Source: Prorocentrum cordatum
Taxonomy: Eukaryota
Direction of reading: 5' to 3'
DNA length: 64,000 bases
NCBI GenBank assembly: GCA_963575745.1
Contig: CAUYUJ010000248.1
Location: 1-64,000, forward strand
Below the pieces are notes generated by a model that was not told the DNA's origin, did no database searches, and worked only from the letters and a program-made list of their open reading frames with translations. Each line of letters begins with the position of its first letter. Position 1 is the first letter of the stretch. Shown here in pieces: positions 15,850-59,904 of this stretch. A program made the translations under genes and the position numbers.

Positions 15850-20960
<5,111 letters not shown>

Positions 20961-23548: not shown

Positions 23549-23567
23549 GTCTCGCCGAGCACTCCCA

Positions 23568-25050
23568 GCTTGTACTGGAACAATTTCTGCCAGATCTCAG
23601 TGGGGGGCTCGCTGCACGCCGGCATGGACATCACCCGGGGCATCCGCCAAGGCTGCCCGTTGTCGCCGCTTCTATTGCGGCCGTCTCGGACCTGTACTTG
23701 CGGAGGTTGGCGAGAGCGTTTCCTGACGCCCTTCTGAAGGCTTGGGCGGACGACCTGGCCATGGTGCTCCCGCGCGCCCTGCCGCGGCTCCTGGCGCTCT
23801 GGCAATTCTTCGAGGACTTCGCCAAGGTCACTGGCCTCCGACTCAACGTGCCGAAGACAGTCTTTGTGCCACTCGACCAGTTTGACGAGTTCGAAATGCG
23901 AAGTTCACTGAGCCGGGCGGTCCCCGCATGGGGCGGAGCTGACATCGCCGCCGCGGCGAAGTACCTGGGGTTCTACGTCGGCCCGGGGCGGGGCCAGCGC
24001 TCGTGGGAGAAGCCTCTGGGCAAATACTTGGACCGCGCCCGCCAATGGGGGCAGATCGGAGCGGGGGCTTTGCTGACCGCGCAGGCCTACGCAGTGTACG
24101 TGGCATCCGTGCTGCTGCTCATCGCTCTGTTGGACCCGCTCCCTCCCGATTTCGCCGACTTCGAATGCCGCGCGTGCCGGGCCCTGTTCAAGGGGCCCAT
24201 GGGCTGGATGGCCCCGGGGTGTCTGAAGGACCTCAGGGCCCTCGGTCTGCCCTGGCAGCTCAAGGACTTGGAAGCCACGGCGCTAGCGGCCAAAGCGCGG
24301 GTGGTCCGGTTCGAGGCCGGGGGCGCCCTCGGAGTGCGCCGCCGGGCCGCGCGGCTCCGCGCCCTGACGTGCCTCGCAGGGGAGCGATCGGCCGTTCGAG
24401 AGGCATGGCTGGATGCGTGGCGGCCGCAGCTCTTCCTCTTGCACCTCGACGACGCCGCCGATCGGGTCGCAGTTCTTCTTCGACGGGTACCAGCAGGCGA
24501 GCGCTGGCTGACGGAGCAGCCGGGCTGGCAGCGCCGGGTGGCCGATCTTGCTCGGGCGCCATCCGGGGAGGGTGCCTTCCGGCATCTGCGTCGACAGCTG
24601 GATCGCTGGCCTGCCGTGACGTTGCCCGGGCGTCGGCTCGGTCGCGTCGTGGCCCGGATGCAGCTACTGGCCCGGTGTTGCACGCCGCGCGTCCAGGCCG
24701 CGTATTTACGCCTGGTTTGCGACGGGTGGTGCACGCGTTGCCGATTTCAAGGGCGCGGGGCCGGCCTATTCGGGTGCGACGGGCACGAGGACAGCGTGGC
24801 CCACTTCGCGCGATGTCCTGTCGTACGCCACCTCTTCCAGACGTTCGCCGGCCTCGCCGCGACGACATCTGCGGATGCTCTGGACATCTTCCTCGGACTT
24901 ACAGGGTCGAAAGGGGAGGCGCGGCAGCGCGCTTGGGCCACTTACGCTTTGTACAGGGTCCACAACGCGCGCCGCACGGGATCTCTGCCTTTGGGCAACG
25001 TGAACGGAGCCTTCCGCATGGCTCTCCTGGAAGCTGCACGAAGCACATGA
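23568..25050 (+). pseudogene. LINE ORF2 C-terminal half: RT core, thumb and C-terminal Cys/His motif; 1-nt frameshift near 23677
   Basis: GIRQGCPLSPLL, WADDLA, GLRLNVPKT, KYLGF, and C-terminal GCDGHEDSVAHFARC. Confidence 0.9.
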
Positions 25051-29946: not shown

Positions 29947-32900
29947 GGCGGATCCAAGACGCCTACGGCGAATCACCGCCGCCCCCTGCTTTTTTGGAAG
30001 CGCCTATGTGGCGGAACGTTGAGGCCAGACCTGCCAAGCTATCGGACCATGTGTTCCCCGAATATGTTTGGAAAACCTTCGGGGAACACGTGGGCATGTT
30101 GAAGGTCATCTTGGCCGCCTGGATGCCATTTTGACTTTTTCGGGCCTTCTTGGAGGACGTCTTGGAGGGCTCGTGGGCCGTCTTGGAGGCCACCTTGAGC
30201 GTCTTGGGGGCCTCTTGGGCCGTCTCGGGGGCCTCTTGGGGCCGTCTTGGGCGCCTCTTGGGCCGTTCTGGGGACATCTTGGAGGCCTCTTGGGCGATCC
30301 TTGGGCGATCTTTGGGAGCTCTTGGGCCGTATCGGGCCGTCGGAAGGCCGAAACGAAGCAAATGTCAAAATCCTTCAAAAACCTTCGGGGAAATCACGCT
30401 TTTTGGCCTTCTCTGGCCTTCCTGGAGGCCCTCTTGGAGGCCTCTCGGGCCGTCTTGGGCCAGCTGCGAGCCACCTTCGGCCATCTTGGTGGGCTCCTGG
30501 CCCGTCTGACGCCGTCGGAAGCCGTTTCGGGGGGCTTTCTGGGCCGACTTGGGGCCCTCTTGGGGTGCTCCAGGGCCGTCTTAGAGGCCATCTTGGGCGT
30601 CTTGGAGGCCTCTTGGGCCGTCTTGGGGGCCTCTTGGGGCCGTCTTGGGGGCCTCTTGGGCCGTCATGGTGCCATCTTGGAGGCCTCTTGGGCGATCTTC
30701 GGGCGACCTTGGGGGCCTCTGGGGCCGTCACGGGCCGTCGGAAAGCCGAAAAGGCGCAAATACCAAAATCGTTCAAATACCAAAGGAAAATCAACGATTT
30801 TGTCCTCGTCGGGCCTTCCTGGAGTACCTCTTGGAGGCCTCTTGGGCCGTCTTGGAGGCCTCTTGCGGGCTTTTTGGGCCGTCTTGGACCATATTGAGGC
30901 CATCTTGGGCCGTCTTGGATGCATCTTGGGGCCAGCTTAGCCGTCTTGGAGGCCATCTTGGCTGTCTTGGAAGCATCTTGCAGGCCATCTTGGGCCATCT
31001 TCGCGATTTTATGAGGATGTCCCGAGCGAAACTGCCGTTTTGGGCGACGACAGGCGGGTTTTCCAGGTGGCCGGCGGGACGGGCCGAAGCCCCAGGGGGA
31101 GTTCTTGTGGAACAAGAACCGAAACCACAAACCATATAATTCCGCACGCCAGGCACCCCTTTGATAAATCAAAAGGGCGCGGCGGATATCGAAGACGCCT
31201 ACGGCGAATCACCGCCATCCCCTGCCTTTTTGGAAGCGCCTATGTAGCCGAACGTTGAGGCCAGACTTGCCAAGCTATCGGACCATGTGTTCTCCGAATC
31301 GGTTTGGAAAGCCTTCGGGGAACACGTGGGCATCTTGAAGGTCATTTTGGCCGTCTGGAGGCCATTTTGACCCTTTCGGGCCTTCTTGGAGGACGTCTTG
31401 GAGGGCTTGTGGGCCGTCTTGGATGCCATCTTGAGCGTCTTGGAGGCCTTTTGGGCCGTCTTGGGGGCCGCTTGGGGCTGTCTTGGGCGATCTTTGGGGG
31501 CACTTGGGCCGTCTCGGGCCGTCGGAAGGCCGAAAAAAAACAAATGCCACAATCCTTCAAAAACCCTTGGGACATCAATGTTTTTGGCCTTTTCGGGCCT
31601 TCCTGGAGGCTCTCTTGGAGGCCGTCTTGGGCCATCGTAGGGCCATGCTCGGCCGTCTTGGTGGGGGCCTATGTCGCTGGATGTTGTTGCCAGTGCCCTG
31701 CCAAACTGTGGGACCGTGTGTTCCCCGAATCGGTTTGGAAAGCGTTGGGGGAACACATGGGGGTGGACGGGGGAGAGGAGGAGAGTGAAGACAACTGAGA
31801 AGGGATGAAGATGCCTCTTGGGAGCCTCTTGAGGCACTCTTCGGCTCTATTGCGCCGTCTTCGCGATCTTGGAGACATTTCGAGACCCCCTTGGAGGCCG
31901 TATTGCGGCGATATTGGGTTCTCTTGAGGCCAGATTGGTTGTCGTCTACGTATCTTGGAGGTCATCTTGGCCATGTTGGCCGTCTTCGAGGCAGCTTGGG
32001 CGTCTGGGTGGCCATCTCGGCCGTCTTGGAGGATCTGTCGTGGACCTTGACGTCCTTCATGGTCTCCCCTGCCCCCCCTTGCCCCCTTGGAAGCGCCTCT
32101 GTGGCCGACAGCTGGGCCAGAGCTTGGCCAAGCTATCGGGCCAGTTGTTCCCCGAGTTGGTTTGGAAAGCCTTCGGGGAACGCGTCGGGGAGCAGGAGAA
32201 GGAGGATCTGGAGAGGGAGGGGGATGATGATTAGGATGAGGATGAGGATGAAAATGATGGGGGAGGAGGAGGAGGAGCAGGAGGAGGAGGAGGAGGACGA
32301 GGAGGAGAAGGAGGAGGACGAGGATGAGGAGAAGGAGGAGGCTGGAAGAGGAGGAGTAGGAGGAGGAGACCTCTTGGGAGGCCTCTTGGGAGGCCTCTGC
32401 GGAGCTTCTCGGGAGCCTCGTGGAGGCCTCATGGGAGCTTCCCCGGGCCTCTTGGGGGCCTCTTGGAGGTATTTGGGGGCTTCTTGGGAGCCTGACCCGC
32501 CGCCCAACGTCGTCGGAAGCCGTCTTGGGGCCTCTCTGAACCGACTTGGGGCCTTCTTGGGGCGCTTGGGGGCCGTCTTGGAGGCCATCTTCAGCGTCTT
32601 GGAGGCCTCTTGGCCCGTCTTGGGGCCCTCTTGGGGGCCTCTTGGGTCGTCACGGGGCCATCTTGGAGGCCTCTTGGGCGATCTTCGGGCGACCTTGGGG
32701 GCCTCTTGGGCCTTCTTGGGCTGTCGGAATGCCGAAAATGTGCGAATGCCGCAATCCCCCACTCCTTTAAAAACCTAGGGACAATCAATGAGTTTGGCCT
32801 CTTCGGGCCTTCCTGGAGGACCTCTTGGAGGCCTCGAGGGCCGTCTTGGAGGCCTCTTCGGGGCCTCTTGGATCGTCTTGGGCCAGCTTCAGGTCATCTA

Positions 32901-35900
32901 AGGCCGTCTTGGGTGCATATTGGGCCGTCTTAGAGGCATCTTGGGGCCATCGTAGCCGTCGTGGAGGCCATCTTGGCCGTCTTCTAGGCATCCTGGGACC
33001 ATCTTGGGCAATCTTGGCCGTCTTCGAGGCCATCGAAGGCGTCTTGGAGGCCTCTTGGGCCGTCTTGCGGCTCACTTGGGGCGGGCCTCTTGGACCGTCA
33101 TAGGGCCATCTTGGAGACCTCTTGGGCGATCTTCGGGCGACCTTGGGGGCCTCTTGGGCCGTCTTGGGCCGTCGGAAGGCCGAAAATGTGCAAATACCAA
33201 AATCCTTCAAAAACCTAAGGGGCATCAACGATTTTGGCCTCTTCGAGCCTTCCTGGAGGACCCCTTGGAGGCCTCTTTGGCCCGTCTTGGAGGCCTCTCG
33301 GGGGCCTCTCCGGCCCATCTAAGGCCGTCTTGGGTGCATCTTGGGCCGTCTTGGAGGCATCTGGGGGCCATCTTAGCCGTCCTGGAGGCCATCTTGGCCG
33401 TCTTGGAGGCATCTTGGAGGCAATCGTGGGCCATCTTGGCTATCTTGAAGGCTATCTTGGGCATCTTCGAGGCCTCTTGGGCCGTCTTAAGGGGCCGTCT
33501 TAAGGGGCCTCTTGGGCCGTCATGTGGCCATCTTGAAGGCCTCTTGGGCGATCTTGCAGCGACCTTTGGGGCCTCTTGGGCCGTCTTGGGCCGTCGGAAA
33601 GCCGAGCATGCGCAAATGCCAAAATCCTTCAAACATCTAAGGAACATCAATGATTTTGGCCTCTTCGGGCCTTCCTGGAGGACCTCTTGGAGGCCTCTTG
33701 GGCCGTCTTGGAGGCCTCTTGGGAGCCTCTTGGGCCGTTTTGGGCCATCTTGAGGCCATCTTAGGCCATCTTGGGTGCATCTTGGGCCATCTTGGAGGCA
33801 TCTTGGGGCCATCTTAGCCGTCTTGGAGGTCATCTTGGCCGTCTTGGAGGCCATCTTAGGCCGGCTTGGAGCCGTCTGGAACGGAAAAACCTTTTGCAAC
33901 CACCTCTGGAAGATCTTTCGGCGTCCTTCCGGGTGGCCGTCGGGGCGGGCCGAAACCCATTGGGAGAGTTCTTTTAGAAAAAGAACCAAAACCAAAACCG
34001 TAATAGTCTGGCACGCCAGGCACCCCTTTGATAAATCAAAAGGGGGCGGCGGATCGAAGACGCCTACGGCGAATCACCGCCGCCCCCTGCCTTTTTGGAA
34101 GCGCCGATGTGGCCGAACGTTGAGGCCAGACCTGCCAAGCCATCGGACCATGTGTTCCCCGAATCGGTTTGGAAATCCTTCGGGGAACACGTGGGCATCT
34201 TGAAGGTCATCTTGGCCGTCTTGGAGACCTCTTGGGCGATCTTTCGGCGATCTTTGGGGGCCGTCGGCAGGCCGAAAAGAAGGAAGTGTCAAAATCCGTC
34301 GACAACCTTAGGAAAATCAAGGTTTTTGGCCTTCTCTGGCCTTCCTGGAGGCCCTCTTGGGGGCATCTTGGGCCGTCTTGGGCCAGCTTCGAGCCAACTT
34401 CGGTCATCTTGGTGGGTTCCTGGCACGTCTGACGCCGTCGGAAGCCGTCTTGGGGGCCTTTCTGGGCCAACGGGGGACCCTCTTGGGGCGCTTCGGGGCT
34501 GTCTTGGAGGCCATCTTGGGCGTCTTGGAGGCCATCTTGGGCGTGTTGGAGGCCTCTTGGGCCGTCTTGGGGCCCTCTTGGGGCCATCTTGGAGGCCACT
34601 TGGGCCGTCATGGGGCCCTCTTGGGGGCCTCTTGGGCGAGTTTGGGGGCCTCTTGGGCCGTCTTGAGCCGTCGGAATGCCGAGAAGAAGCAAATTCCCAA
34701 ATCCTTCAAAAACTTAGGGGAAATGATTTTGGCCTCTTCGGGCCCTCCTGGAGGACCTCTTGGAGGCCTCTTGGGCCGTCTTGGAGGCCTCTGGGGGGCC
34801 TCTTGGGCCTTCTTGGGCCGTCTTGGACTCTCTTGGGCCGTCTTGGAGGCATCTGAAAGCCATCTTAGCCGTCTTGGAGGCCATCCTGGCCGTCTTGGAG
34901 GCATCTTGGAGGCCATCTTGGAGCCGTCTTCGGCAGGAAATTTGGGAGTTGAGGTCCTTGGCAATCCTCTGGGTACCCTGGCGGGGCGGGCCGAAACCCA
35001 TTGGGAGAGTTCTTTTGGAAAAAGAGCCAAAACCAAAACCGTAATAGTCTGGCACGCCAGGCACCCCTGCGATGAATCGACAGGGGGCGGCGGATCGAAG
35101 ACGCCTACGGCGAATCACCGCCGCCCCCTGCCTTTTTGGAAGCGCCGATGTGGCCGACCGTTGAGGCCAGACCTGCCAAGCTATCGGACCATGTGTTCCC
35201 CGAATCGGTTTGGAAAGCCTTCGGGGAACACGTGGGCATCTTGAAGGTCATCTTGGCAGTCTGGAGGCCATGTTGACCCTTTCGGGCCTTCTTGGAGGAC
35301 GTCTTGGAGGGCTCTTGGGCCGTCTTGGAGGCCATCTTGAGCGTCTTGGAGACCTCTTGGGCCGTCTTGGGGGCCTCTTGGGGCCGTGTCTTGGGCCTCT
35401 TGGGCGATCTTTGGGGGCACTTGGGCCGTCTCGGGCCGTCGGAAGGCAGAAATAACGCAAATGCCACAATCCTTCAAAACCCATGGGAAATCAACGATTT
35501 TGGCCTTTTCGGGCCTTCCTGGGGGCCCTCTTGGAGGCCTCTTGGGCCGTCTTGGGCAATCTTAGGGCCATGTTCGGCCGTCTTGGTGGGCTCCTGGTCC
35601 GTCTGACGCCGTCGGAAGCCGTTTGGGGGGCCTCTCTGAGTCGACTTGTGGCCCTCTTGGAATGCTCCAGGGCCGTCTTGGAGGCCATCTTGGGCGTCTT
35701 AAAGGCCTCCTGTGCCATCTTGGGGGCCTCTTGGGGCCCTCTTGGGCCGTTCCGGGGCCATCTTGGAGGCCTCTTGGGCGATCTTTCCGAAAAGAAGCAA
35801 CTTTCAAAATCCGTCAAACACCTCAGGAAACTCCATGTTTTTGGCCTCTTCTGGCCTTCCTGGAAGCCCTCTTGGGGGCCTTTTGGGCCGTCTTGGGCCA

Positions 35901-36120
35901 GCTTCGAGCCAATTTCGGCTATCTTGGTGGGTTCCTGGTACGTCTGACACCGTCGGGAGCAGTCTTGGGGGCCTTTCTGGGCCGACTTGGGGCCCTCGTG
36001 GGGCGCTTCGGGGCCGTCTTGGGGCCATCTTGGGCGTCGTGGAGGCCATCTTGGGCGTGTTGGAGGCCTCTTGGGCCGTCTTGGGGCCCTCTTGGGGCCG
36101 TCTTGGGCCCCAAGACGGCC
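29947..36120. mobile_element. Head-to-tail array of a non-autonomous hairpin-ended repeat family with GGCCGTCTTGG-rich interior
   Basis: Junction GGCGGAT|..AAGACGCCTACGGCGAATCACCGCC at ~29953, 31187, 34054, 35095. Confidence 0.7.
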
Positions 36121-37624
36121 CAATAAGTTGTGAAAGCGCCCCACGAGGACCCCGAATCCCCTAAGAGGCAACAGTCAGCAACCTCACTAGGGCTTAAACC
36201 TTTTGTTGCATGCTCGCCTTTTGTTGACCTCAGAACGCCCAACACGGCCCAAGAGATCCCCAGGATCGCGCCAAGAATGACCAAAATGGCACCCAGAGAG
36301 TCCCAAGACAGCCCAAGAGCAGCCCAGCTGAGCCCGAGGACGTTCGAAACAGGCTCTTGGAGAGGCTCAAGACTTGTCGAGAGCTCCAGAACGGCACAAG
36401 AAGTGCTAGAAGTGATCCGAGACGACCCCAAGGTATCCCCAATACGGCATCGAGTGGTCCCTCACTGCTCAAGAGCGCCCGCCCCCAGACGGCCTTCTCA
36501 GTCCCCAAGACAGCCCGAGAGGGTCCTAAAGGAGGCTTCCACGAGCCACAAGGCAGCCCTTCACCCTGGAACGACTCGGACCGCATTTGCTCCCTGAGTC
36601 GTCCTATGAGCACGTCGGCGAATCAGAATTGAACCGCACCTTTGCGAGCTTTACGTGATTCATCGGTCACAAGTGCTTCGCCGTTCCACATGTGTAGGAG
36701 GTGGCGGTGATTCGCTGTGAGCGTCTTCGATTACACCATGTTCGGCGGGCTCGTGTTTTAATTATTGAATATCGAGCCCGGGTGCTGATGCTGTAAATGT
36801 TGATGCCAACGCGAGGATTGCATCCCTGAGAGTCAAGACGTTGGGATGAGGTACGCCTTCGCTTCGAAAGGGTCTCTCGACGTTCCTCGGGTCCTTCCAC
36901 GGGTCTTCCCCTGGTGTTCCTCGCGCGTCTGCGCGCCACTGAGGCCCCACAGAGGGCTTCATTCTCTATCCAAGGTTCCTTCTGGCAAAACCTTGACTTC
37001 ATTGAACCGCTTCGCTCATTCCGCCAGCCCATGTCGCACCACGGTTGCAAACTGTTGTTGGTTTGCCCATGGCGGGCGAGACGGAGGACAGGGGACTCGG
37101 TAGGGGAGTGGGCTGGGCTTCGCTCTCTATCCGAGGTTCCATCTAGCAAAACCTTGGCTTATCATTCCCGCCCCGTCCATATCCCAAGTGGCGGCGGTGT
37201 CCATACCCGTCCATGCCCCGCTCGGGGGAGGTCCCCGTGGCGGCGGCGTCCATACCCGTCCATGCCTGTCCATACCCCAAGTGGCGGCGGCGCTCGTGCC
37301 CGTCCATGCCCGTCCTCTTCCTGACCCCGTCCATACCCCACTCGGGGGAGGTCTCCCCCCCGAGTGGTGGCGACCTCCTCCTGCCCGCCGCTCGGCCGCC
37401 CCCGGCCGCGCAGGAGGTGCGAGCAGAACAGACGGAAGCCGAAGCTAACTTGCAGCGAAGCAGGCTCGCCGAAGCCCGCTGCGAGCTGACGCTTCGCCGC
37501 CAGCCTCAGCTGGAAGGAGAGAAGGGGCGTTGCTTGCACAGTCGGTCTAGCGCCCAAGATGGATCTGGCCAGGGCGGGTAATGATGGCCAGTCCTGGCCC
37601 CCTGTCGTCCCGATGTTTTTTTTT

Positions 37625-48699: not shown

Positions 48700-51600
48700 G
48701 TATCTGTATGGATCCCGATGCAGACCGTGCATGAAACTATATGCGACTTTGTTGCCAACAGTCCACACACCCCGTCCTTGTCCTCTCCCCGCACGCGCCA
48801 GCTTGTTCTCCACAATCCTTCAAATATCCGTATGGAGCGGCGATGCTCCCCGCTTGGCATCAAGACAAGTCTATACACGTCCGCGTGTACCGAGGAAGCT
48901 GGCGGCGCATCACCGACCGTTTCCTGGTAGTTGAGCGGAATTGAACGCAGCGCTGAAGTTCGTGACGCGTCGTGTGTTCGAGCCATCCCTGTCGCAGGCC
49001 TTCTGGGCGTTCCTGGGGTGCGTCTTAGGTGCGTCTTCTGGGTCTCGTGAGGGCTTCTCGGAGGCTCTTGAGGGCGCGCTGTGGGTCTGGGGGCCGTCTT
49101 ATCGCGAAGGTTCACCTAAATTCTTTCGAAGCGACTCGGTATAAGAGGAAGTCTGGGCGACTCTGGGGCGGTCTGGGGGCCCTCTTGGAGCGTCATTGGG
49201 CCGTATTGGGGCAGTCTTGGCGCTGTCTTGGGGCCGTCTTGGGGCCATCTTGGGACCACATTGGGGCCATCTCGGGGTGTCTTTGGGACATCGTGAGGCT
49301 CTCGGATGCGTTCCCGAAGTTACCTGACGCCGGGTAGCTTTGGAAGCAAACATCGTTGAAGGCTTTGCTGTTCTGTTGTATGCCCTTGGCCTCCCATGGC
49401 TCTGGGGAAGGCCTCCTTGGGCGCCTTTTGCGAGATTCTTCGATTTCCCTGGGGGAATCTTAGAGGCACATTGGGCTCTCTGGGACGTCGCTGGGCTGGC
49501 GTGGGTTGGGCCTCGGGCAGTTTGCAGCCGTCTTGGGGCAGTCTGGGGTCAGGCTTGAGGCCGTGTAGCCGCATGGGGGCGTTTGGAGGCGTGGTGGAGC
49601 CAGTGGGGACCGCTGGCAAAGTTGCGCCCCAGGCAGTAAAGTATAGACGCTTCGCGTAACCCCACCAGCAGGGTCACTTTGTCCCTGGCATGTGCACTCG
49701 CTTCAGCGGCCTACGTGCCTCTGCAGCCAATTATCTCGCTCTGTGCCCCAGGCGTGAATCCCGCTCCCTGGATCTGTCCTTAGAGCCGCGAACCAAAAAA
49801 GTAACCCCACCAGCCTGAGTGGCTGCCCGCGCGCTCGCTTCGCTTGCCTCTCTTTTCGTGCTGCCTAGTCGCGGCCCGACTAGTGTTCGGACGGCTTTCG
49901 ACCTGCTTCGCGAGCCCGCAAACCAAGAAGTAACCCCACCAGCTGGGCGCCGTTCGCTTCGTTATTTTTTCCTTTGCTTCGGCGCGGCCCGCCCTAGCTT
50001 GCTCGGCGTTCGACTCGTCTTCGCGCGCCCGCGTACCAAAAAGTAACCCCACCAGCCCATCCAGAAACGATGCCCAGGCGAGTTGCCCTAATCAGGGATG
50101 TGGATGAGCATGCAGTGGAGTAGCGGGCCGGGTAAGACGTCATACCCCAAGAGGGGGAGGATGGAGGAGGAATCGAAGGAGGGGGAGGGTGCGAGGGAGA
50201 AAAAATGGAAGAGGGAGGAGGAGGAGGAGGAGGAAAAGGCGGAGGGGGAGGAGGAGGGTGAGCAGAATGGCCAGAGGCTTTTTGGATGCCTCTCGGAGTC
50301 TCTTCGGATGCCTTTTGAAAGTTTCTTGGAGTCCTCTTGGGGCGTCTTGGGGGCCACTTGGCCCTCCTGGGGGCCTCTTGAGGCCTCCTGGGCGCCTCTT
50401 GGGGCCATCTTGGGAGCCTTGATGGCCATTGTGAGGCCGTATTGGAGGAGATCGATCAAAGAAGGGGGGGAAATTACATTCCCCCCACCCCAGGAGGCCA
50501 ACATGGGCCCCAAACCTTCGTACAGCGTTTGACTTCTCGCCGATGCCTTCTTGGACGCTCTAATGGGTCGCGGGGCGCCCCATCCAGGTCCAGTCTCGCT
50601 CACTCCCACCCGCCCTCCCAACACATACGTAACACCCGAGGGAGTTTCAGCATATTGCTTAGGAGCGCCACGCATGCCATAGGCGCCACGGCTTCCAAGT
50701 GCACGAGGCACCCTTGAGTTCTAAGCGAGCCAGGCGCGCCAGGTGCGGCACGTGCCCTACGTTTAAGCAATATGCCGGCACCCCCGCTGTCCATATTAAA
50801 TAAAAACCATGCAGAATTGGTGGTCACCGGGCGCCCAATTATGCTCCAGATGTGCAGGCAAAATGCAGTCTGCATTGTTTTCTGACAGGGATGGTTGGCC
50901 TGCGCGCAGCGAGCACTATGACGGCACTCCCTCCGTCCTTGTCAAAAACCAATGCTAAGTGGTCGCGGGGCGCCCGCGCATTCTCCAGATGTGGAGGCGA
51001 ATTGTATGCTGTATTGTTTTTACAGAGATGGTGGTGGGTGGGGCATGTCCCGGGTCGGTCCACAGTCGGGTTGGGGCGGGAGGTTTATAAATAAGGAGCA
51101 GTGGTCAAGGTACCCTCCTAGATGTCAGGCCGTCTAGCTCACTCCCACCCGCCTCCCAACACATAAGTAAGACCCGAGTGACAGCAGCCCGCTTAGGAAC
51201 ACAACACGAGCCATGTGCGCCACGGGTTCCTTGTGTGCACCAGGCACCCTGGAGGCCCAAGCGAGCTAGGTGCGGCGCGTGCTCCACGTGCGCCTACTGT
51301 GCCACGTACTCCAGCCGCGCCAAGTACGCTAGCTACGGGGAAGCATACAGCCCCCAGGCGCCTGGGACCCTAACCCCACGGAGTTCAGGATCTTCATCTT
51401 CAGTACCCTTGAAGCGAAGTGCCGAGCATTCTGTGAGAAGGGCGGCTCCTCCAGGGAGCGCAAAACATCGACACCGAATGACAAACTGTGACATATTCAG
51501 GAGTAGTGAAACAGATAAGAGATCAGAGAAGATGGCCCTGCGCATGCTCCAGATTTGGAGCCAAACTGTATGTTGTATTGTTTTTTGCAGGGATGGTTGG

Positions 51601-54600
51601 CCTGCGCGCAGCAAGCAATGTGCGGCACCCCCGCCGTCCCTGTCAACAATCAATGCAAAGTGGTCGCGGGGCGCCCGCGCATGCTCCAAATTTGGAGGCC
51701 AAGTTTATGTTGCATTGTTTTAGTAAGTGATGATTGGGGTAGGGTTTCATTGGTCCGGGTCCCGGGGTTGGCTGCGGGTCACCTCGGGGAGAGGGTGTTC
51801 ATGAATTGGGAACAGTTTTAAACCCTCCCCGAATGGGAAGAAGGGGGGTTGGACGAGGAAACGCTCTAAACCATTCACGCCCTAAAGGGCTGATGGGACT
51901 TCTGGATGCTTTGAACATCAAGGTTCGTTGCGTGATATCCGACTCCGAACCGAACCTCAGGGTCGGCTTTGGAGGTCGCCGCGGCCACACATCGGGGCAC
52001 AGTTTTTGTCAAGGAGTGGCATGCCCCTTCCCAGCTCCCCCCGCTCTGCGATGTAGACGTGGCTCAGCATTGGCAATCCTTGTGGAAGACGATCAACGGA
52101 GAGGAGGCGCATTGCCACAATACTTTCCGGATGTCTAGCACATGTTAAATAATATGTGTCTGATATGCCAAGGCATGCGTGTAATATGTTTCAAACATGT
52201 TTAATTCATGTAGAAGACATGTTCAGGACATGTTCAGTTCAAGGATCAAACGGTTAGGGTGTCCATTGTCAAGGCATCCGCAAGGCAATCTAGCGACAGA
52301 CAGTCGTCAGTTCGTGTCCAACATGGGCAGTCATCTTTTTTTTGGTTAGGGATCGACTATAACGCAACCAAAGGTGTTAGTTGGTGTTGGTTACGAACAT
52401 GTGTGCTGGTCACGCATCCCTACCAGCCCATTGCAGGCGTCGCTGGAAAGTCTCTTGGGAGAGCTGGTCGGTTGGAGTTCTCCTGTGGGCCCTGGGGGGG
52501 CGTCTGGGCGCCATCTTTGGGGGGAGGCCTCTTGAAGCCGTCTTAGAAGACATCGATTAAAATTGGAAGCCATCCTGGGCAGTCTAGATGGCTCTTGGGA
52601 CCATCTTGGAATATCTTGGAGCCCTCTTGAAAGTCACTTGGGGCCCTCTGAGAGGCCCTGGAGGCCCTCGTGGGGCCAACCTGCAGGACATCGATCAGAG
52701 AGGGGAGGGGGGTCTGAACTAGTAGTGCCTCTCCTGAGCCCCCCAAAGTCGTCTCTGAGAGCGTTCTTGTGGGACCCTTGGGTCACTCTTGGGCGCTGTT
52801 GGGGCCGTCTTGGAGCCCTCTTGGGCCCCTCCTGGGTCTGTTGGGCCATCTTGGAGCCATCTTGAGGCCTCGGAAGGCAATCGGAAGCGAAACGAGCGAG
52901 AAGGCCAGAGCCGTTGATTTCCCATAGGTTTGGAAAGGAATGAGCTTCTTGGGGTCGTCCTGAGGAACCCACAAGGCCACTTGAACCCGTCCTGGAGCGG
53001 TCTTGGGACCTCTGAGAGTATGCTGGAAGCCATCTTGATCGGTCTTGCGCTGTCTGGAGCCACCTTGGCGGCCATGTTGGGCCATCTGAGGCCCTTTCGG
53101 AGCCATCCTGGGCCATCTTTCGGCGCTCTAGCGCCTCGCGGGGAGCCCCGTCCTCGCCCAGGGAGATGGGCTAGGGGGAGAGGCAAACCTCGCCCCGAAG
53201 GGGGAGAAGGAGGTGGGAATAAGAAGCGCCCTAACTTAACCCACCTACGGCCTGGAACTTTGGCTCAGCGTGTCGCTCTGCAGGTTCTGGCCCACCACGC
53301 TTCGGCGCGACGCGTTATCCACGTCCTCATTCCCAAGCGTCAACTTCCCGAGCATTTCCCAGCATCTCGCCCCGCGGAGCAGAGCGACACGCTATCCGCT
53401 CGCAAGGCATAGCGTTTCTCTGGAGCCGCTGCCGCGACACGCCAAGCAAAAGTTCCCGACCGTACGCCCGAAAGGGCTGGTGAGACCAACCTCGCACGAC
53501 CCACATCGCAGGCGGGAGCGTCCACCAGATCCGAAGGGCTGTGCCCGCTGCCGCTGATGGCTATATTGGACAAGTCGGCATCTCTCAGGGCCTCTCGGGC
53601 CACCTTTCGGGCATGTTGGGCAAAACTGACCGTGTTGGACAGTCGCGGGGGCCCTGGAGGAAGTCTGGAAGCGACCTTGGGACATCCTAATGAGGGCAAC
53701 ACATGGGACTGGCAACCGCAGCGAGAAGGTATTCCATTGGTTTCCCGTGTGTTCTGCTGACTCGGGAGGCACACCGGGGCCCTCCAGGGCCATCTTGCAG
53801 TCATTCTGGGGCCACCTTCGGGCGCCTTGGACTCTCGAGGCCCTCCTCGGGGCATGTGTTGGGCTGCCTCCGAAGCGTCTTGGACTCTCCCGGCCGTCGC
53901 GTGGCGTCCCTGTGGGAATCCTGAGGTCACCCGGAGCAGCCAGGCTCGCACCTCCAGATGCTCTTGCTCGGGGAGTTGCCAAACACAAGACAGCCGTCCA
54001 GCATCAATTTTCGTACAGGCGAGGTTGATTCGTAGGTCAACCCGGCCAAACCAAGGGTACCCTGATGTCCTGTGTTTCGTGACCCGTGCCTTCTACACTC
54101 CTATGGCGATGTGGCCCTCGGAAGTGTCTTGTGTCCTCTCGCGTCTCCGATCAACCTTGACTGTAGCCTTGCGCCCCCGAGGGGAGGGGGCCAGGGGGTC
54201 TCAGGACAAGTGCATGCACGAGGCGTTCCAGAAATCGCCTCGCCTTTTGGCGCGTCCTCGCCACTCGCGGGAGGCCGGCGAGCGCTGGCGGAAGCAAAAT
54301 AGTGGTGGGTCCGCCTGCGGAGTCTGGCGGAAGGCGGCGGAAGTAACAGTGAGACATCAACATGTGTCGATCCAGGGGTCACCGAGCGCCTTCCACTGCT
54401 CGCACAGTGCCTCCTCGCAAACGTCCATAGAAGCAAATGTGCGCCTCGATGTAGCGGAGCCTCTCTGCCTCGACGCATTGGATCCAGGCCACTTGCGAGC
54501 AGCTATTCTGCGAGCCGTGGAACGCGCTCGTCCAAGAGGGTCGGATGTGGCCACGTGTGCCCGTGAGCATGTGTATGTGTGTGTGTGTGCGCGCACATGT

Positions 54601-54610
54601 GCGCATGATG

Positions 54611-54632
54611 GCCGCACCCTCCTCGGCTCGAG
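54611..54632 (+). other. Possible relict dinoflagellate spliced leader
   Basis: CCGCACCCTCCTCGGCTCGAG matches CCGTAGCCATTTTGGCTCAAG at 14/21 ungapped positions and ends 55 nt before the symplekin ATG. Confidence 0.45.
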
Positions 54633-54687
54633 ATGGCGTTGGTGCCCGGCCCCGTGCCGCGCGGGGCCGCGCGGTGGGGCAAACGCT

Positions 54688-57600
54688 ATGCAGCCGGCGC
54701 CTGCAGGGCAGCAGGACATCCACGCCAAGGCCGCCGAGCTGCTCCGGCGAGCCGCCGCCGAGCAGGACGTGGGGCAGCGCATCCGCCTGCTGCAGGAGGC
54801 ACAGGACGTGCTGCTGCGGCCCGAGGTTGAGCGGGACACGGTGGGCTCGTGCCTCGATTACTTCCTGAACCTCCAGGCGGACCCGCACGTGGCGCTGCGC
54901 CGCTACCTTGCGCACTTCCTCGATCGGTTGCTCTTCTGCCAGCCGGCTCTCGCGCTGCGGTGCATCGCGACGGTGGCGTCCCTGCTCGGGGACGCTGACG
55001 TGTGCGTGCAGGAGCTGGCGCTCAGGGCTGCCACGACCCTGCACGGGCGCGCGATGCTGCTCCTCTCGTCGGAGAACGAGGTGCTGCAGTTTCAGCGCTA
55101 CCACGAGCAGCTGCAGAAGCTCCAGGAGGCGATCATGGCTATGCTCCAGGGCGGCTGCCCCGGCAAGCCGCGGATCTTCCAGCTGGCCGCAAGCTGGGCC
55201 AAGGCCTCGATCCTGGTGCAGACGCCCAGCCCGCTGGCCCTGCGCGTGCGCGTGCCCCCCGACCTGCGCGGCGCCGCCTGCCTGGAGGACTTCCCGGAGA
55301 AGGCCCTGCAGCACCTCGACTTGGGCAGGGTCCAGCAGCAGGCCGACGAGCGCCTCGACGCCCTGTGCCGGCTCCTGGAGGCGCCGCCCCCCGAGCTCGG
55401 CGGGGCGTGGCCGCGCGGCCATGCCCGCTCGCTGCTCTCGGCCCTGGGGGCCGTGGCGAGGCAGCGCCCGGGCCGCCTCGGGCGGGTGCTGGGCGCGCTG
55501 TGCTGCTTCCTGCGCGAGGGCCAGGTGCCGCCCGAGGCGCAGGCCGCGCCGGCGGCGGGGAGCGGCCCGGCGGGCCGCGCGGGAGGCGGCGCGGAGCTGC
55601 GGGAGCTCGTCTGGGACGAGGTGTTGCGGCTGCTGGCGTCCAACCTCACCGCGGAGAGGCGGGCCGAGCTCGTCGAGGTGCTCCACAGCGCCGGCCTGGC
55701 GGGTCGCCTGGAGGACCTGGCGACCCAGGCAAAGTATAGGCAACTCTGCGCTGCCGCGGAGCGCTGGGGCACTCTGGGCAGCGAGCCGAAGCCCAAGCGG
55801 CGGCGGACGACCTTGGCCCACCGGCTGTGGACAGGTGCCAAGGCACAGGCGGGCCACGATGGCCCCGCGCGTGCGGACGAGGACGCTTTCGATGGCGACG
55901 CGCAGCTCTGCGGCGAGGCCGAGGGCGAGTGCCAGAGCTTCGAGGAATACTTCGGCCTCCCGAGCCAGCGGGAGCCCGCGGGCCACGTGGCGGCGCCCGC
56001 ACTGCTCGCGAGCCGAAACAGCAACGGCGCCAACCTGGCGCGCATCGCGCTCACCTCCCTGAGCTCGCTGTCCATGAAGCGCAGCCTCCTGCGGGACAGG
56101 GCGAACGAGCGCGTGATCGCATTCAGCGAGCCCGCGCTCAAGGGCGTAAAGTCAAAGAAGGAGGCCCAGTCGGAGGGGCGTTCCGCAGACCTGGCCCTCT
56201 TCATCGTTGGGGCACCAACCGAGGACGCCGATGGCACCAATGGTGCGAGCGAGGACTCCCGAGAGGCGCTGAAGATAAGAGCGGCAGCGCCACAGATGCT
56301 CCCACCTGGACCGCTTGGTACTGGGGGCAGTGGCGACGGTCCGCTACTGCCCCTGGAGGGGCCCGCCGTGCAATTGGCGAGCCAGGTGGCGGTTCGCGAA
56401 CAACTGCAGCTGCGCCTGTTTCGCGAGCTGCTCGAGTCGCAGCGGCGGATGCACAAGTCTCTACTGGCAGCCAGCATGACTGACGAGCAGCTAGAGAAGT
56501 TCCAGTTCGTCAGCCGCCAGGTTGCCCTCCACTTGGCTGCGGGCTCGCATGGGTCAGTCAGCTACGGGCTGCAGCGGCAGATGTGCCAGGCCTACATGCT
56601 GAACGCCTTCGAGGCCCTAAAGCTCGCCCTCGACCCGCAAACGGCCACGCCTGGTGCCGGCCCGGCGGTGCTTGGGACGCTCGTGGAGCTCTTCTTCGCC
56701 AAGTTCGCCGCAGACGTGGCGCGGTTCCAAGAGAACGCCGGACACACGAAGAGGGCCGCGGCCGAGGCTGCGGCAAAGACGCCGCTGCGGGACATCCTCG
56801 AGGGCCCAGGAGCGAGGGCGAAGGCGACCGGTGGCATTTTCACGTACGCCGAGCTCTTCGGCGTCTTCGTCGCCGAGTTCGAGCGCAACGAGTTGCCTCG
56901 GCGAGAGATGCGCACGTTCCTGAACGAGATCCCCGTCGTGCCGCTATCTGCGTTCCGACTGCTGGAGGCGCAGTGTCAGGTGGCTTCGACGAGAAAGATG
57001 GCTCTGCTGACGGTTCTGTCGCTGGTGGACAACAAGCCCTCTTGCCGGTGGCACTGCTTGCATTTGCTGTTCAGGCTAGCCTACTCTGGGGGCGACGACA
57101 GCAGCATCCGCTTCGACACGATCCGGCTCGTCATCAACAAGATCTACAACTCGGGCCCGCGGGCCCCGATGCGGTGGCAGCTGCCTCACCTCAGCGATGC
57201 GGAAGCAGCAGCAGCCGCGCTGCAGGGCGCTGGGGGCGGCGCCTCCTGGGAGCTGCCCGACGACGACTTCCTGCCTCTGGAGAAGCTCAAGGGCAGGTGC
57301 ATCGAGGATGTTGCAACGCTGATGCTTCGCTCCATGGCGCCGAGTGCGGCCAGGTTCGCCCTGCCGGTGAACGTGCCGCTGCGCGTCGAGCAGCTACGAG
57401 GCGACCTCTTCAAAGGCGCCGTGTGCGTTCCCAAGGACAGGGTGTGGCTGTATCTCGCCCTTTGCATCAAACGGCCTGTCCTGCTCCACGAGCTCGTCGA
57501 GACCTTCACGCTGTGCGACCCGGACATGAAGGAGCACCTCGTCAACTCCATCGAGGAGGCCATCAAGTACATCCCCGCCTCGGAGCAGGAGGTGCTCTCG

Positions 57601-58570
57601 CTGGTGCGCAAGGCGACCCCGGAGACCGAGCGGCTGGTGCTGAAAGTGCTGCACATCCTGATGCAGGCCAGCCAGGGCAAGGAGGGGCAGCCCCTCTGCC
57701 CCGAGTACGGGGAGGCGGTGACGCGGCTGTACGGCGCCACCTCGAACCCGCGCCTGCTCGTGCCCGTCTTCGACCTCCTCGACCGGAAGAACCTGCTCGA
57801 CTTCCTGCCGGCCGTCCTGCAGCTGGAGGCTCGGGGGCAGCGTCAGGGGGGCGGCCAGGCTCAGGGAGGTTGCGCAGCGACCCCCGATCGCCCACCCCGC
57901 CCGGGGACGTGCGGATTCGCTGAGGAGGGCCTGTCGCCGATCGATCGGCGAGGTGTCGCCGATGCCAGGTCGACGCTTCCCCCCAAGCCGATCCCCCTGT
58001 CGTTGCCCCTAAGAGGAGGAGGAGGTCACGAACGCCTTCAGGCAGCTGGTGCACAGCCGCTCGCCGCCCCTCAGCATCTCGGAGCTGCTCACGGAGCTCC
58101 ACCACATGAACACCCCCACGGAGAACATCGTGCCAGTCAAGTGCTCGATGCAGGCGCTGAACATCCTTTTCGCCATGCGGGAGCAGTTCGATCCGAAGGT
58201 CTACGGCATCGTGGTACAGTCGCTGGTGGAGGAGCCGGGCCGGTTGCCCACGCTGTTCATGCGCACTGTGATCCAGGTCGTGAAGGAGCTGCCCCGGCTC
58301 GCGGACTTCGTCGTGGTCGAGATCCTCCCCCGGCTGGCCAGGCAGGAGGTACTGGGCGACGACAACATGCGGCGCGGCTTCATGATCGTCCTGCAGCACA
58401 CGTTTGCCAGCCAGCCGGCCGGCGCCGCGAGGGTGCTGACGATGCTGCCCATCACGCAGCTGGAGGACGTGCTCGTGCAGCACCCGGACTGGAAGGCGCC
58501 GCTGCTGGACTACGCGTCCAGGCAGCCCGCGGGCGTCGTGCCGCCGCACGTCAGGCAGCTCCTGCAGTGA
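54688..58570 (+). CDS. SYMPK: Symplekin/Pta1 (pre-mRNA 3'-end processing scaffold); exons 54688-57828 and 58016-58570, ~1231 aa
   Basis: HEAT-like N-terminus; C-terminal RLLVPVFDLL, LPAVLQL, PLSISELLTELH, LPTLFMRTVIQ, LPRLADFVV.EILPRL, LP..QL match the symplekin C domain; strong GC3 coding bias. Confidence 0.9.
57829..58015 (+). mobile_element. 187-nt GC-AG intron formed by a TIR element (Introner/MITE, 57830-58013) with AGG TSD
   Basis: Left CTCGGGGGCAGCGTCAGGGGG vs reverse complement of right end CTTAGGGGCAACGACAGGGGG (17/21); AGG at 57827-57829 and 58014-58016; splicing restores the frame. Confidence 0.88.
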
Positions 58571-59904
58571 GGGCACGCCCTGGGGGCGCGGCTGCACGTG
58601 GCCCCCGCGCCGCCAGGATGCACCGCGTGTCCAGCCTGTCGAAGTCGGGCCCCCAAGTCTTGAGGGTCTCTCGAGGAGTGGCGGATGCCTCACCGCCCCC
58701 GAGGGCGGGGAAGGTCTCCACATCCACCGTCCCCGGGGGATCCGGCCAGGACTGCGGCACTTGTGGACATGGGTGCCTCCTGCCGGTGCAGGTTCTGCTC
58801 CTCCCTACTCCTCGTCCCTCCCCCTTCCTCCTGTCTCTCCTCCTCCAGCGCCGAGGATACATCATTTCCGTGCGCCCCGAGAAAATCAGGCGGAGCTTGT
58901 GCGTTCGAGCCGGGGCAGGGTTCCGAGGCCCGGAAGTGGGGCCACCCTCGTTCGCGGGGGGCCTTCTCCCTCGGGCCCCCCCCCCCCCGTAGGCACCACA
59001 AGGGGCCAGGCGGCCCGAGGGCGGCCGGCGCATGACCCCAAGAGGGCCCCGCGGCCCCTGGATCTTTCCAGCGAGCCCCGAGGAAGCAAACCGCGGAAAC
59101 AAGCTTGTCGTTGTCTCAGCCTGTGCAGCCTCCCAGCTCTTCTGGCCAAGGTTACCTCAGCGGGCCCAAGATATCCCCAGGCCTTGTCGAGATGGCCCCC
59201 AAGCAGGCCCCAAGACTGGCTCAGGGCGTCCTGGTGCTGCCTTGGGGGCGTCTGCCTCGGGATTACAGTTGGGCATTGTTGGGGCCGTCTTGGGGCCCAA
59301 GGGGGCCTTCGTTGGATGCTTCTCACACTGAGAATGTCTGTGCAAGGGCACGTGCAGCTGTTAAGAAGACGAGCGCTATGCTCCAAGACCCCTGCAGCGC
59401 GAGAGCATTGCGTTTGCACCTGTTCCCCTGTGCTGGTTCTCCTTCTCCCGGTCCTCCTGGTCCTCCCCTCCTCTTCGCCCTCCTCCACAGCTCCCTCCCG
59501 TTGTCCACCCTTTGCCCAGGCCAGCTTCCCGAACAACAACCCTGCGGAGTACATCGCTTTCAGCGTCGTGGGCCAGGAGCTTCTGCCCGTGCGTTGGGCG
59601 GGGTGCTGCCCTGGTTGAGCTGGGCCCGCAGAGACTGCCCCGCGGCTGCTTCCGCCAACGGGCCCCGAAGACTTGCGACAATTACGCCCGCTGGCACCGT
59701 CTCGCCACGCCTCCTGTGGGTCCATCTCCCTCTCTGTAGATATCTCTCTATGATTACAACCAGATGTGTATTTGCACGGGCTTGTACCTGTATCTATGCA
59801 TTCATGTAGTTTGTATATGTGGATGCGTGCATGTATATGCATGTATGTGAACATATGTATGTACATGCATGTACAACTATATGTGTACATGTATATGTAA
59901 ATTC

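What the first reader, a model, noticed from the sequence alone, without database searches (positions are those of the whole stretch)
57827..58016. Introner: the only symplekin intron is a MITE whose splice sites come from its TSD
Seen: a 184-bp element with ~21-26-bp TIRs (CTCGGGGGCAGCGTCAGGGGG / CCCCCTGTCGTTGCCCCTAAG) is flanked by AGG duplicates. The GC donor is made of the last TSD base plus the first TIR base, and the AG acceptor comes from the right TSD. Splicing 57829-58015 therefore removes the element plus one TSD equivalent and yields LQLE|EEEVTNAFRQLV, colinear with known symplekins. Established: TIR-type Introners create introns in dinoflagellates and algae. Inference: a scarless intron gain by a 3-bp-TSD family.
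Basis: partly seen in the sequence, partly recalled or inferred. Interest (0 to 1): 0.7.

Follow-up and report, generated by a model that had tools for sequence, protein, structure and literature searches.

The report
Transposon-like intron in dinoflagellate symplekin
The one intron inside the coding part of a dinoflagellate's symplekin gene is real and looks like a small inverted-repeat transposon that landed there, which is a way of making introns already well described in these algae.

Summary
A 184-bp non-coding element (57830-58013) has 17/21 terminal inverted repeats and sits between AGG repeats. Transcript contigs of 4 runs from 4 studies skip exactly 187 nt there, and GC..AG (57829-58015) is the only legal register. 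The spliced protein (1231 aa) is colinear with 27 of 27 dinoflagellate symplekins.

The inverted repeat is not chance: 1 of 200,000 arm-preserving shuffles reaches 17/21. The AGG "TSD" is weak evidence. AGG border repeats are generic in dinoflagellate introns (IRIB, Mendez 2015), and the site lies in an (AGG)n run. The repeat is in fact 4 nt (GAGG).

No second copy was found in the window or in the metagenome and viral scans, and no genome is held. A transposon origin is therefore likely, but membership of an Introner family is untested. This splice-site geometry is already published for Polarella ILE classes 9 and 12.

"Only intron" is true for the CDS alone. Transcripts also skip 196 or 198 nt in the 3'UTR. 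That segment is bounded by an unrelated 17/21 inverted repeat and has no AG acceptor in any register. This is the more unusual lead, and it also keeps an "uninterrupted second gene copy" rival alive.

Verdict: a good, RNA-verified new member of a known kind.

The parts
54688..57828 (+). Symplekin CDS exon 1 (ATG at 54688; 1047 codons), ending ...CTG GAG
   Evidence: The start codon was located. The product is colinear from end to end with P0004 (1230 aa) and 11 other dinoflagellate symplekins, with no large insertion.
57827..57829 (+). Left AGG direct repeat (with G57826 it reads GAGG). Its last G is intron base +1.
   Evidence: Sequence. The joint has 4 nt of ambiguity.
57829..58015 (+). 187-nt GC-AG intron, phase 0, followed by G
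   Evidence: One contig in each of runs X1, X5, X8 and X16 skips 187 nt here. This is the only register with legal ends. 27 of 27 homologs show no gap at the junction.
57830..58013 (+). 184-bp non-coding element bounded by inverted repeats (CT...AG termini)
   Evidence: As single-stranded DNA it folds with z -2.88, and 1 of 200 shuffles folds as well.
57830..57850 (+). Left terminal inverted repeat, CTCGGGGGCAGCGTCAGGGGG
   Evidence: It matches the right arm 17/21. 1 of 200,000 arm-preserving shuffles reaches 17.
57934..57951 (.). Perfect 18-nt internal palindrome, TCGCCGATCGATCGGCGA. The stretch around it (57927-57982) is matched by pieces of other transcript contigs.
   Evidence: Pieces X8 record 25 (57927-57973) and X16 record 13 (57944-57982) each differ at 3 letters.
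57993..58013 (+). Right terminal inverted repeat, CCCCCTGTCGTTGCCCCTAAG
58014..58016 (+). Right AGG direct repeat. Its AG is the acceptor and its G is the first exon base. It is the first unit of an (AGG)4 run.
58016..58570 (+). Symplekin CDS exon 2 (184 codons plus stop), carrying the Symplekin_C domain
   Evidence: Pfam PF12295, E 5e-29, profile positions 30-179 of 182. Translation.
58601..58796 (+). Second segment absent from transcripts (3'UTR). X1 and X5 skip 196 nt and X8 skips 198 nt. The ends are GC..CT, with no AG acceptor in any register. It is bounded by inverted repeats at 58604-58624 and 58772-58792 (17/21).
   Evidence: Joints, sequence, inverted repeat. The RNA folds as one long hairpin of -114.2 kcal/mol, z -2.93. 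It is unrelated in sequence to the CDS element.
54383..54530 (.). Third element bounded by inverted repeats (148 bp, arms 19/21), about 100 bp upstream of the transcript 5' end. Its arms recur in other transcripts.
   Evidence: Other contigs of all 4 runs lie on 54378-54424 and 54480-54528 at 90-95% likeness, with loose ends.

Best explanation
The 187 nt at 57829-58015 are a genuine spliceosomal intron of the usual dinoflagellate GC-AG|G type. It is the only intron in the 3.7-kb symplekin coding sequence.

It most likely arose when a short non-autonomous DNA transposon with terminal inverted repeats (a MITE-like element, 184 bp, termini CT...AG) inserted into the run CTG GAG GAG GAG GAG and duplicated AGG. 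The last G of the left AGG and the first C of the element now form the GC donor. The AG of the right AGG forms the acceptor.

Splicing therefore removes the element plus one repeat copy and restores the ancestral reading frame without a scar. In the pre-mRNA the two repeat arms can pair and bring the two splice sites side by side.

Shown: the intron, its exact limits, the inverted repeat, and the unchanged protein length.
Inferred: origin by transposition, the 3-nt duplication, and any role for the stem.
For: Removal from transcripts:
- One contig in each of 4 runs from 4 studies joins across exactly 187 nt. Flanks are identical to the window or nearly so (0-2 differing letters over 1.3-2.3 kb).
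- The best holders carry 0.84 of the sampled words of 57300-58600. That is about what a transcript without the intron should hold, by my arithmetic.

Exactness:
- 27 of 27 homologs show no gap at LQLE|EEEV.
- The spliced product of 1231 aa is colinear with the 1230-aa nearest relative.
- Exon 2 carries Symplekin_C from profile position 30.

Inverted repeat:
- The arms match 17/21, and the outermost pair lies directly next to the AGG copies.
- 0 of 20,000 shuffles of the element and 0 of 5,931 real window segments reach 17. 1 of 200,000 arm-preserving shuffles does.
- Across 43 kb of window there are 9 combinations of a TIR of at least 17/21 with a 3-nt repeat. Twenty shuffled windows gave a mean of 0.3.

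Context:
- The second transcript-skipped segment of the same gene is also bounded by a 17/21 inverted repeat.
- The background rate of such repeats is 4 of 6,000 random segments across 21-64 kb, and 13 of 6,000 across 53-64 kb.

Literature:
- The same geometry is described for Polarella ILE class 12 (donor made of the last TSD G plus the first C of the ILE, acceptor from the TSD) and for class 9 (3-nt TSD). GC donors are favoured in dinoflagellates (bioRxiv 10.1101/2020.10.14.339549, full text parts 1-3).
- Introns with inverted and direct repeats make up 2.4% of P. cordatum introns and 1.3% of Polarella introns (PMC10666404 supplement passages).
Against: - No second copy of the element or of its arms was seen. 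blastn against the window gave only the element itself. Pattern searches in the window gave chance-level hits.
- Six metagenome loci and 9 viral loci matched the arm pattern only, with no second arm.
- No transposase lies in the window (55 of the 116 listed ORFs were scanned).
- The AGG repeat carries little information. Dinoflagellate introns generally have 2-9-nt identical border repeats with AGG (PMC5032977). AG-type TSDs are called ambiguous by Gozashti et al. (PMC9860276). The site lies in an (AGG)n run.
- The spliced mRNA is by construction identical to an empty insertion site, so contigs alone cannot prove removal at RNA level.
- The kind of run is on record as RNA only for X8.
Confidence: 0.6

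Rival explanations
1. The intron belongs to a proliferating Introner family in the strict sense. Many near-identical copies with these arms and 3-nt duplications would lie in unrelated genes of this genome.
For: The architecture fits published dinoflagellate ILEs. Two more short TIR-bounded elements lie at the same locus. The arms of the upstream one recur in other transcripts of all 4 runs, so such families do exist in this genome.
Against: No copy was found with any means available. The three TIR elements at the locus are unrelated in sequence. Only a 39-47-nt interior piece, not the arms, recurs in other contigs.
Confidence: 0.3
2. It is an ordinary dinoflagellate intron with the usual AGG border repeat. 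On this reading the terminal complementarity arose or is kept for another reason, such as a stem that juxtaposes the splice sites, and not by transposition.
For: AGG border repeats are generic. The arms pair in the minimum-energy RNA fold and bring the two splice sites together. The element is single-copy in all data seen.
Against: A 17/21 repeat ending exactly at the border repeats is very unlikely without a mobile-element origin. The overall RNA fold is not exceptional: z -1.73, and 11 of 200 shuffles fold as well. A second, unrelated TIR-bounded skipped segment lies in the same gene.
Confidence: 0.12
3. It is not spliced at all. The window holds a gene copy recently hit by two MITE insertions, and the transcripts come from an uninterrupted, otherwise identical copy, so the contigs show empty sites.
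For: The joined form equals the empty site by construction. The 3'UTR skip has no legal acceptor in any register and differs by 2 nt between strains (196 vs 198 nt), as indels would. Both skipped segments are TIR-bounded like insertions. No DNA run of the organism was available.
Against: This reading needs two independent insertions of unrelated elements within 800 bp of one copy, with 0 substitutions over about 4 kb. The CDS element's ends give a proper GC..AG|G intron. The reading frame is otherwise intact over 1231 codons.
Confidence: 0.12

Closest known systems
Polarella glacialis Introner-like elements, classes 12 and 9 (Roy et al., bioRxiv 10.1101/2020.10.14.339549; published as Curr Biol 2023, not read here)
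   Same: The splice-site recruitment is the same. In class 12 the GC donor is built from the terminal G of an ..AGG duplication plus the initial C of the element, and the acceptor is taken from the duplication. Class 9 has a 3-nt TSD with splice sites spanning the element/TSD border. GC is the predominant donor.
   Different: Those are families of 123-272 or more introns. Here a single copy is known. The host is a different dinoflagellate: its symplekin is 65% identical to Polarella's.
Introner elements (IE) defined by structure in Amoebophrya and Prorocentrum cordatum (Farhat 2021, PMC7789003; Dougan 2023, PMC10666404)
   Same: Inverted repeats of 8-20 nt and direct repeats of 3-5 nt lie within 30 nt of the intron ends, and a hairpin joins the exon borders. 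Both the CDS intron and the 3'UTR skip have this architecture.
   Different: In Amoebophrya most such introns are non-canonical. The CDS intron here is canonical GC-AG. Only the 3'UTR skip resembles the non-canonical type.
Symbiodinium ILEs (4-nt GHNN TSD, CT at intron +5/+6, element ends in AG)
   Same: The element begins with CT and ends with AG, and it has inverted repeats and a short TSD.
   Different: In Symbiodinium the whole left TSD is the start of the intron and the element's own AG is the acceptor. That register would give AG..AG here, which is not legal. The splice is shifted by 2 nt, and a 4-nt TSD does not fit an element ending in AG.
Identically repeated intron boundary (IRIB) of dinoflagellate introns (Mendez 2015, PMC5032977)
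   Same: A 2-9-nt identical repeat containing AGG lies at both borders and is present once in the mRNA. Here it is GAGG.
   Different: IRIB is a property of introns in general and says nothing about inverted repeats. The TIR is what sets this intron apart.
Micromonas and Aureococcus Introners (Huff et al. 2016; recalled, and as cited)
   Same: A MITE-like element co-opts a splice site from its TSD, and removal leaves no scar.
   Different: Different lineages, TSD lengths and GT donors, and thousands of copies.

Membership tests
Spliceosomal GC-AG intron of dinoflagellates | Absent from mature transcripts, with G[T/C/A] at the 5' end, AG at the 3' end, and G as the first downstream exon base | tested here: met
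   A 187-nt skip appears in contigs of 4 runs. GC..AG|G is the only legal register.
Spliceosomal GC-AG intron of dinoflagellates | Removal happens at RNA level: the DNA of the same strain carries the segment and unspliced precursors exist | not testable with these tools
   No DNA run holds the stretch; the best share of words is 0.84. Only contigs, not raw reads, were laid.
Introner / ILE in the strict sense (Roy, Gozashti) | A family of similar introns at unrelated positions (all-against-all blastn, similarity running from border to border) | tested here: inconclusive
   There is no second copy in the window. None was found in the metagenome or viral scans. The whole genome is not held.
Introner / ILE in the strict sense (Roy, Gozashti) | A target-site duplication that varies from copy to copy | tested here: inconclusive
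   There is one copy only. Its repeat AGG/GAGG equals the splice consensus and lies in an (AGG)n run.
Introner / ILE in the strict sense (Roy, Gozashti) | Lineage-specific, recent gain: the intron is absent at the orthologous site of relatives | not testable with these tools
   Only proteins or transcripts of relatives were available, not genomic DNA.
Introner element by structure (Farhat 2021; Dougan 2023) | An inverted repeat of 8-20 nt and a direct repeat of 3-5 nt within 30 nt of each intron end | tested here: met
   The arms match 17/21 starting at intron base +2. The longest perfect runs are 6 and 7 nt, so this is met only if mismatches are allowed. The direct repeat is 3-4 nt.
MITE (non-autonomous TIR DNA transposon) | Terminal inverted repeats directly next to a duplication, small size, no coding capacity | tested here: met
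   The element is 184 bp, and the TIR abuts the AGG copies. The + frame read-through peptide has no real relative among 1.84 billion representatives; the single hit is spurious.
MITE (non-autonomous TIR DNA transposon) | Multiple copies, and an autonomous partner with the same TIRs | tested here: inconclusive
   None was found in the window. Pfam on 55 ORFs found a LINE-like EEP+RT but no DNA transposase. The genome is not held.

The most novel reading that the evidence does not exclude
In this core (non-parasitic-type) dinoflagellate, short hairpin-forming elements bounded by inverted repeats are removed from mRNA whether or not they offer legal splice sites.

The CDS element happens to give GC-AG. 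The unrelated 3'UTR element (58601-58796) has ends GC..CT and a junction that moves by 2 nt between strains, yet it is removed just as completely.

That would extend the Amoebophrya-type 'non-canonical introner element' removal beyond Syndiniales. In those elements the border is defined by the inverted and direct repeats. It would also suggest removal guided by structure rather than by the splice consensus.
Probability: 0.2. Interest if true: 0.6.

Novelty: new member of a known kind. Interest (0 to 1): 0.3.

Why it matters
This is a clean, transcript-verified single case of how a TIR element landing in AGG can make a scarless GC-AG intron, in an otherwise intronless 3.7-kb dinoflagellate coding sequence.

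It agrees with the published model that Introner-like elements drive intron gain in dinoflagellates. It shows the class 9/12 geometry outside Polarella. It adds no new principle.

The by-product may matter more. A second TIR-bounded segment is missing from the same transcripts without any legal acceptor. If that removal is at RNA level, non-canonical removal guided by inverted repeats is not confined to Amoebophrya.

Tried and rejected
**Searches for further copies**
- Own-genome search: no genome is held.
- blastn of the element against the window gave only the element itself and its internal palindrome.
- Arm patterns in the window gave chance-level hits: 4 matches including both arms, and 10 matches against 9.9 expected.
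- A degenerate arm pattern found 6 loci in metagenome contigs and 9 in viral contigs. In a script none had a second arm or similarity beyond the pattern. I treat all of them as chance matches. These collections are not expected to hold dinoflagellate genomes.
- HMMER with the + frame read-through peptide of the element against 1.84 billion representatives gave one hit. It is a bacterial repeat protein at 32% identity, which I judge spurious. The other frames were not searched.
- Earlier findings of this scan were looked up four times. Nothing concerned this genome or this sequence.

**Transcript contigs**
- No contig of the four runs lay on either arm or on the left half of the intron. Only 39-47-nt pieces of other contigs lay on 57927-57982.
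- Missing cover in contigs is not evidence of absence, so I draw nothing from it.

**Alternative registers and duplications**
- A 5-nt duplication (GGAGG vs AGGAG) does not match.
- A 4-nt GAGG duplication matches but costs the two outermost TIR pairs.
- The Symbiodinium register gives AG..AG, which is not legal.

**Relatedness of the three TIR elements at the locus**
- There is none. Mean column identity is 48%.

**In-window comparison intron (GT15 gene, about 14034-14661)**
- Its inverted repeat is weak: 87 of 3,000 shuffles do as well.

**3'UTR skip**
- I looked for a legal GT/GC..AG reading with the AG at 58790-58791. It is incompatible with the contigs.

**Papers**
- The Current Biology version was not looked up.
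- So sequence comparison with the Polarella classes remains open.

Full report
**What is there**

The window is nuclear DNA of a dinoflagellate. The long + strand frame at 54688-57828 and the frame at 58016-58570 together encode a symplekin.
- Residues 600-1028 of the first frame find 27 proteins at E <= 0.001 among the 8,000 candidates scored. All those with a name are dinoflagellate symplekins (Polarella, Symbiodinium, Durusdinium, Effrenium). The best is an unnamed transcript-derived protein at 84% identity.
- The second frame carries Pfam Symplekin_C, E 5e-29, from profile position 30.
- No whole genome is held for the window.

**Check of the observation**

- AGG lies at 57827-57829 and at 58014-58016.
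- Between them is a 184-bp, 73% G+C element.
- Its first 21 nt (CTCGGGGGCAGCGTCAGGGGG) and last 21 nt (CCCCCTGTCGTTGCCCCTAAG) match 17/21 in inverted orientation, or 18/26 if extended.
- The outermost matching pair (C57830 with G58013) lies directly against the AGG copies.

This repeat is not chance.
- 0 of 20,000 mononucleotide shuffles of the element exceeded 15/21.
- 0 of 5,931 real 184-nt window segments exceeded 14/21.
- Shuffling each arm separately answers the objection that a G-rich 5' end and a pyrimidine-rich 3' end pair by composition. There, 1 of 200,000 shuffles reached 17/21.

I also scanned window 21,000-64,000 for every start and every length from 60 to 1000. I left out the first 21 kb, which is rich in TAC/TAG satellite. 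The scan gave 269 pairs of at least 17/21. Nine of them are flanked by an identical 3-mer, and this element is one of the nine. Twenty block-shuffled windows gave means of 17.3 and 0.3. So a repeat of this strength is not unique in the window. What makes this one telling is that it coincides to the base with an intron defined independently.

**The intron is real and its limits are as predicted**

I laid Logan contigs of four runs from four studies on 54000-59600. Only X8 is on record as RNA. X1, X5 and X16 have no recorded kind. The contigs of X1 and X5 stop at the same 3' end as X8's, and X16's stops at 58600, at the second joint; all four cover only the transcribed stretch of the gene.
- Each run has one contig that joins 57825 to 58013 and skips 187 nt.
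- The join has 4 nt of ambiguity, because GAGG occurs at both borders.
- The flanks differ from the window at 0 (X1, X5), 1 (X8) or 2 (X16) letters over 1.3-2.3 kb.

Of the five possible registers, only 57829-58015 has legal ends: GC..AG followed by G. That is the normal dinoflagellate pattern, and GC may be the preferred donor there.

The best holders carry 0.84 of the sampled words of 57300-58600. By my arithmetic a transcript lacking the intron should hold about 0.83.

The spliced product reads LQLE|EEEVTNAFRQLV. It aligns with 27 of 27 homologs with no gap within 30 residues on either side. Over its whole length of 1231 aa it is colinear with the nearest relative (1230 aa) and with 11 further full-length homologs, and shows no large insertion. 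For that alignment I took 12 of the 27 hits, choosing those that looked full-length. So this is the only intron in the coding sequence.

**What the 'TSD' is worth**

Very little on its own, for four reasons.
- Mendez et al. (PMC5032977, passages) showed that dinoflagellate introns in general carry a 2-9-nt identical repeat at both borders, with AGG conserved.
- Gozashti et al. (PMC9860276, passages) call AG-type duplications ambiguous for this reason.
- The right-hand copy is the first unit of an (AGG)4 run that encodes the conserved EEEE. Any insertion in that run would therefore be flanked by AGG.
- The repeat could be 3 nt (AGG, element CT...AG) or 4 nt (GAGG, element CT...AA). The 3-nt reading keeps two more TIR pairs and is the better one, but a single copy cannot settle it.

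The case for a mobile-element origin therefore rests on the inverted repeat, not on the duplication.

**Is it an Introner?**

In the structural sense used for Amoebophrya and Prorocentrum cordatum, yes. That definition asks for an inverted repeat of 8-20 nt and a direct repeat of 3-5 nt within 30 nt of each intron end. Such introns make up 2.4% of P. cordatum introns, 1.3% of Polarella introns and under 1% in Symbiodiniaceae (supplement passages of PMC10666404).

In the strict sense, a sequence family that has made several introns, I could not test it.
- blastn of the element against the window finds only itself.
- Arm patterns give chance-level matches.
- A degenerate arm pattern found 6 metagenome loci and 9 viral loci. 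None has a second arm or any similarity beyond the pattern.
- A full HMMER pass with the read-through peptide gave one spurious hit.
- Pfam on 55 of the 116 ORFs of at least 180 aa found a GT15 glycosyltransferase, a thioredoxin-domain gene and a LINE-like EEP+RT, but no DNA transposase. I left out ORFs in the satellite regions and those overlapping the symplekin gene.

The mechanism itself is in print for Polarella glacialis (bioRxiv 10.1101/2020.10.14.339549, parts 1-3 read).
- Class 12 ILEs use the terminal G of an ..AGG duplication plus the initial C of the element as a GC donor, and take the acceptor from the duplication.
- Class 9 has a 3-nt duplication with splice sites that can span the element border.
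- Symbiodinium ILEs also begin with CT and end with AG, but they use another register. That register would be illegal here.

**A second skipped segment**

The same contigs show a second joint in the 3'UTR, 30 nt after the stop codon.
- X1 and X5 join 58600|58797 and skip 196 nt, with 2 nt of ambiguity.
- X8 joins 58600|58799 and skips 198 nt.
- The X16 contig ends at 58600.

No register gives an AG acceptor; the possible ends are GC..CT, CC..TG and CC..GC.

Yet this segment too is bounded by a 17/21 inverted repeat. The arms are CCCGCGCCGCCAGGATGCACC at 58604-58624 and GGTGCCTCCTGCCGGTGCAGG at 58772-58792.
- 0 of 3,000 arm shuffles reach its local score.
- It folds as one long hairpin of -114.2 kcal/mol, z -2.93.
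- It is unrelated in sequence to the CDS element.
- Random real segments of 150-260 nt reach this score in 4 of 6,000 cases across 21-64 kb, and in 13 of 6,000 across 53-64 kb.

So both transcript-absent segments of this gene, 2 of 2, are TIR-bounded. This strengthens the transposon reading of the CDS intron.

It also raises two possibilities that I cannot separate without DNA reads.
- The first is removal of the Amoebophrya type. There non-canonical introns have borders marked by inverted and direct repeats, and so far this has been reported for that parasite lineage only.
- The second is that the transcripts come from an uninterrupted gene copy and the contigs show empty insertion sites. A scarless Introner makes the spliced mRNA identical to the empty site, so contigs cannot decide.

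Against the second possibility:
- It needs two independent insertions of unrelated elements in one copy with no substitution over about 4 kb.
- The CDS element's ends form a proper GC-AG|G intron.
- The frame is otherwise intact.

**A third element**

A third TIR pair lies about 100 bp upstream of the transcript 5' end, at 54383-54530, with arms matching 19/21. Other contigs in all four runs match its arms at 90-95%. Multi-copy TIR elements therefore do exist in this genome.

**Verdict**

The intron is real, exact and transposon-like, with the published class 9/12 splice-site geometry.
- Three claims are not established: the family status, the 3-bp TSD, and that this is the 'only intron'.
- It is a new member of a known kind and of modest interest.
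- The non-canonical 3'UTR skip is the lead worth following.

Noticed in passing
window 58601-58796 (arms 58604-58624 and 58772-58792): Transcript contigs skip 196 nt (X1, X5) or 198 nt (X8) in the symplekin 3'UTR. No register gives an AG acceptor. The segment is a 17/21 TIR-bounded hairpin and is unrelated in sequence to the CDS intron.
   Followed up: partly
window 54383-54530: A 148-bp element with 19/21 inverted-repeat arms lies just upstream of the symplekin transcript start. Other transcript contigs of all four runs match both arms at 90-95%, with loose ends. It is probably a multi-copy MITE family. A further repeated piece lies at 54094-54148.
   Followed up: partly
window 11000-12800 (+), 27200-27550, 30100-36500 (-), 49150-53000 (-), 59037-59294: A roughly 11-nt periodic repeat of the type CCCAAGACGGC / CCCAAGAGGCC is very abundant. 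There are 171 matches to a 16-mer at up to 3 mismatches, against 1.0 expected. It fills intergenic and probably intronic DNA.
   Followed up: no
window 13416-15104 (+), interruption about 14034-14661: A GT15 (alpha-mannosyltransferase family) gene is split into two same-frame ORFs that both end or start at Pfam profile position 179. The 628-nt interruption is flanked by a 5-nt direct repeat, ATTTG. No register has G[TCA]..AG ends if the conserved YRYYLRIDAD motif is to be restored. Its inverted repeat is weak (87 of 3,000 shuffles do as well). No RNA evidence was obtained.
   Followed up: partly
window 1-8000 and 15800-21000: Long low-GC tracts (37-47% G+C) with strong GC skew are made of TAC/TAG-type trinucleotide satellite in both orientations.
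   Followed up: no
window 21410-23596 (-): An ORF with weak Exo_endo_phos and RVT_1 matches suggests a LINE-like retrotransposon remnant.
   Followed up: no
window 57927-57982: The interior of the CDS intron, around a perfect 18-nt palindrome, is matched by 39-47-nt pieces of other, more highly covered contigs in X8 and X16, with 3 differing letters each. The nature of those transcripts is unknown.
   Followed up: no
window about 58370 (exon 2, ...DDNMRRGFMIV...): The window encodes R where all 12 aligned homologs have a conserved W (NMWRGF). The laid contigs show no difference from the DNA at this place.
   Followed up: no
window 54633-54690: An out-of-frame upstream ATG lies 2-3 nt inside the apparent transcript 5' end (contigs start at 54631-54638) and overlaps the symplekin start codon at 54688.
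   Followed up: no
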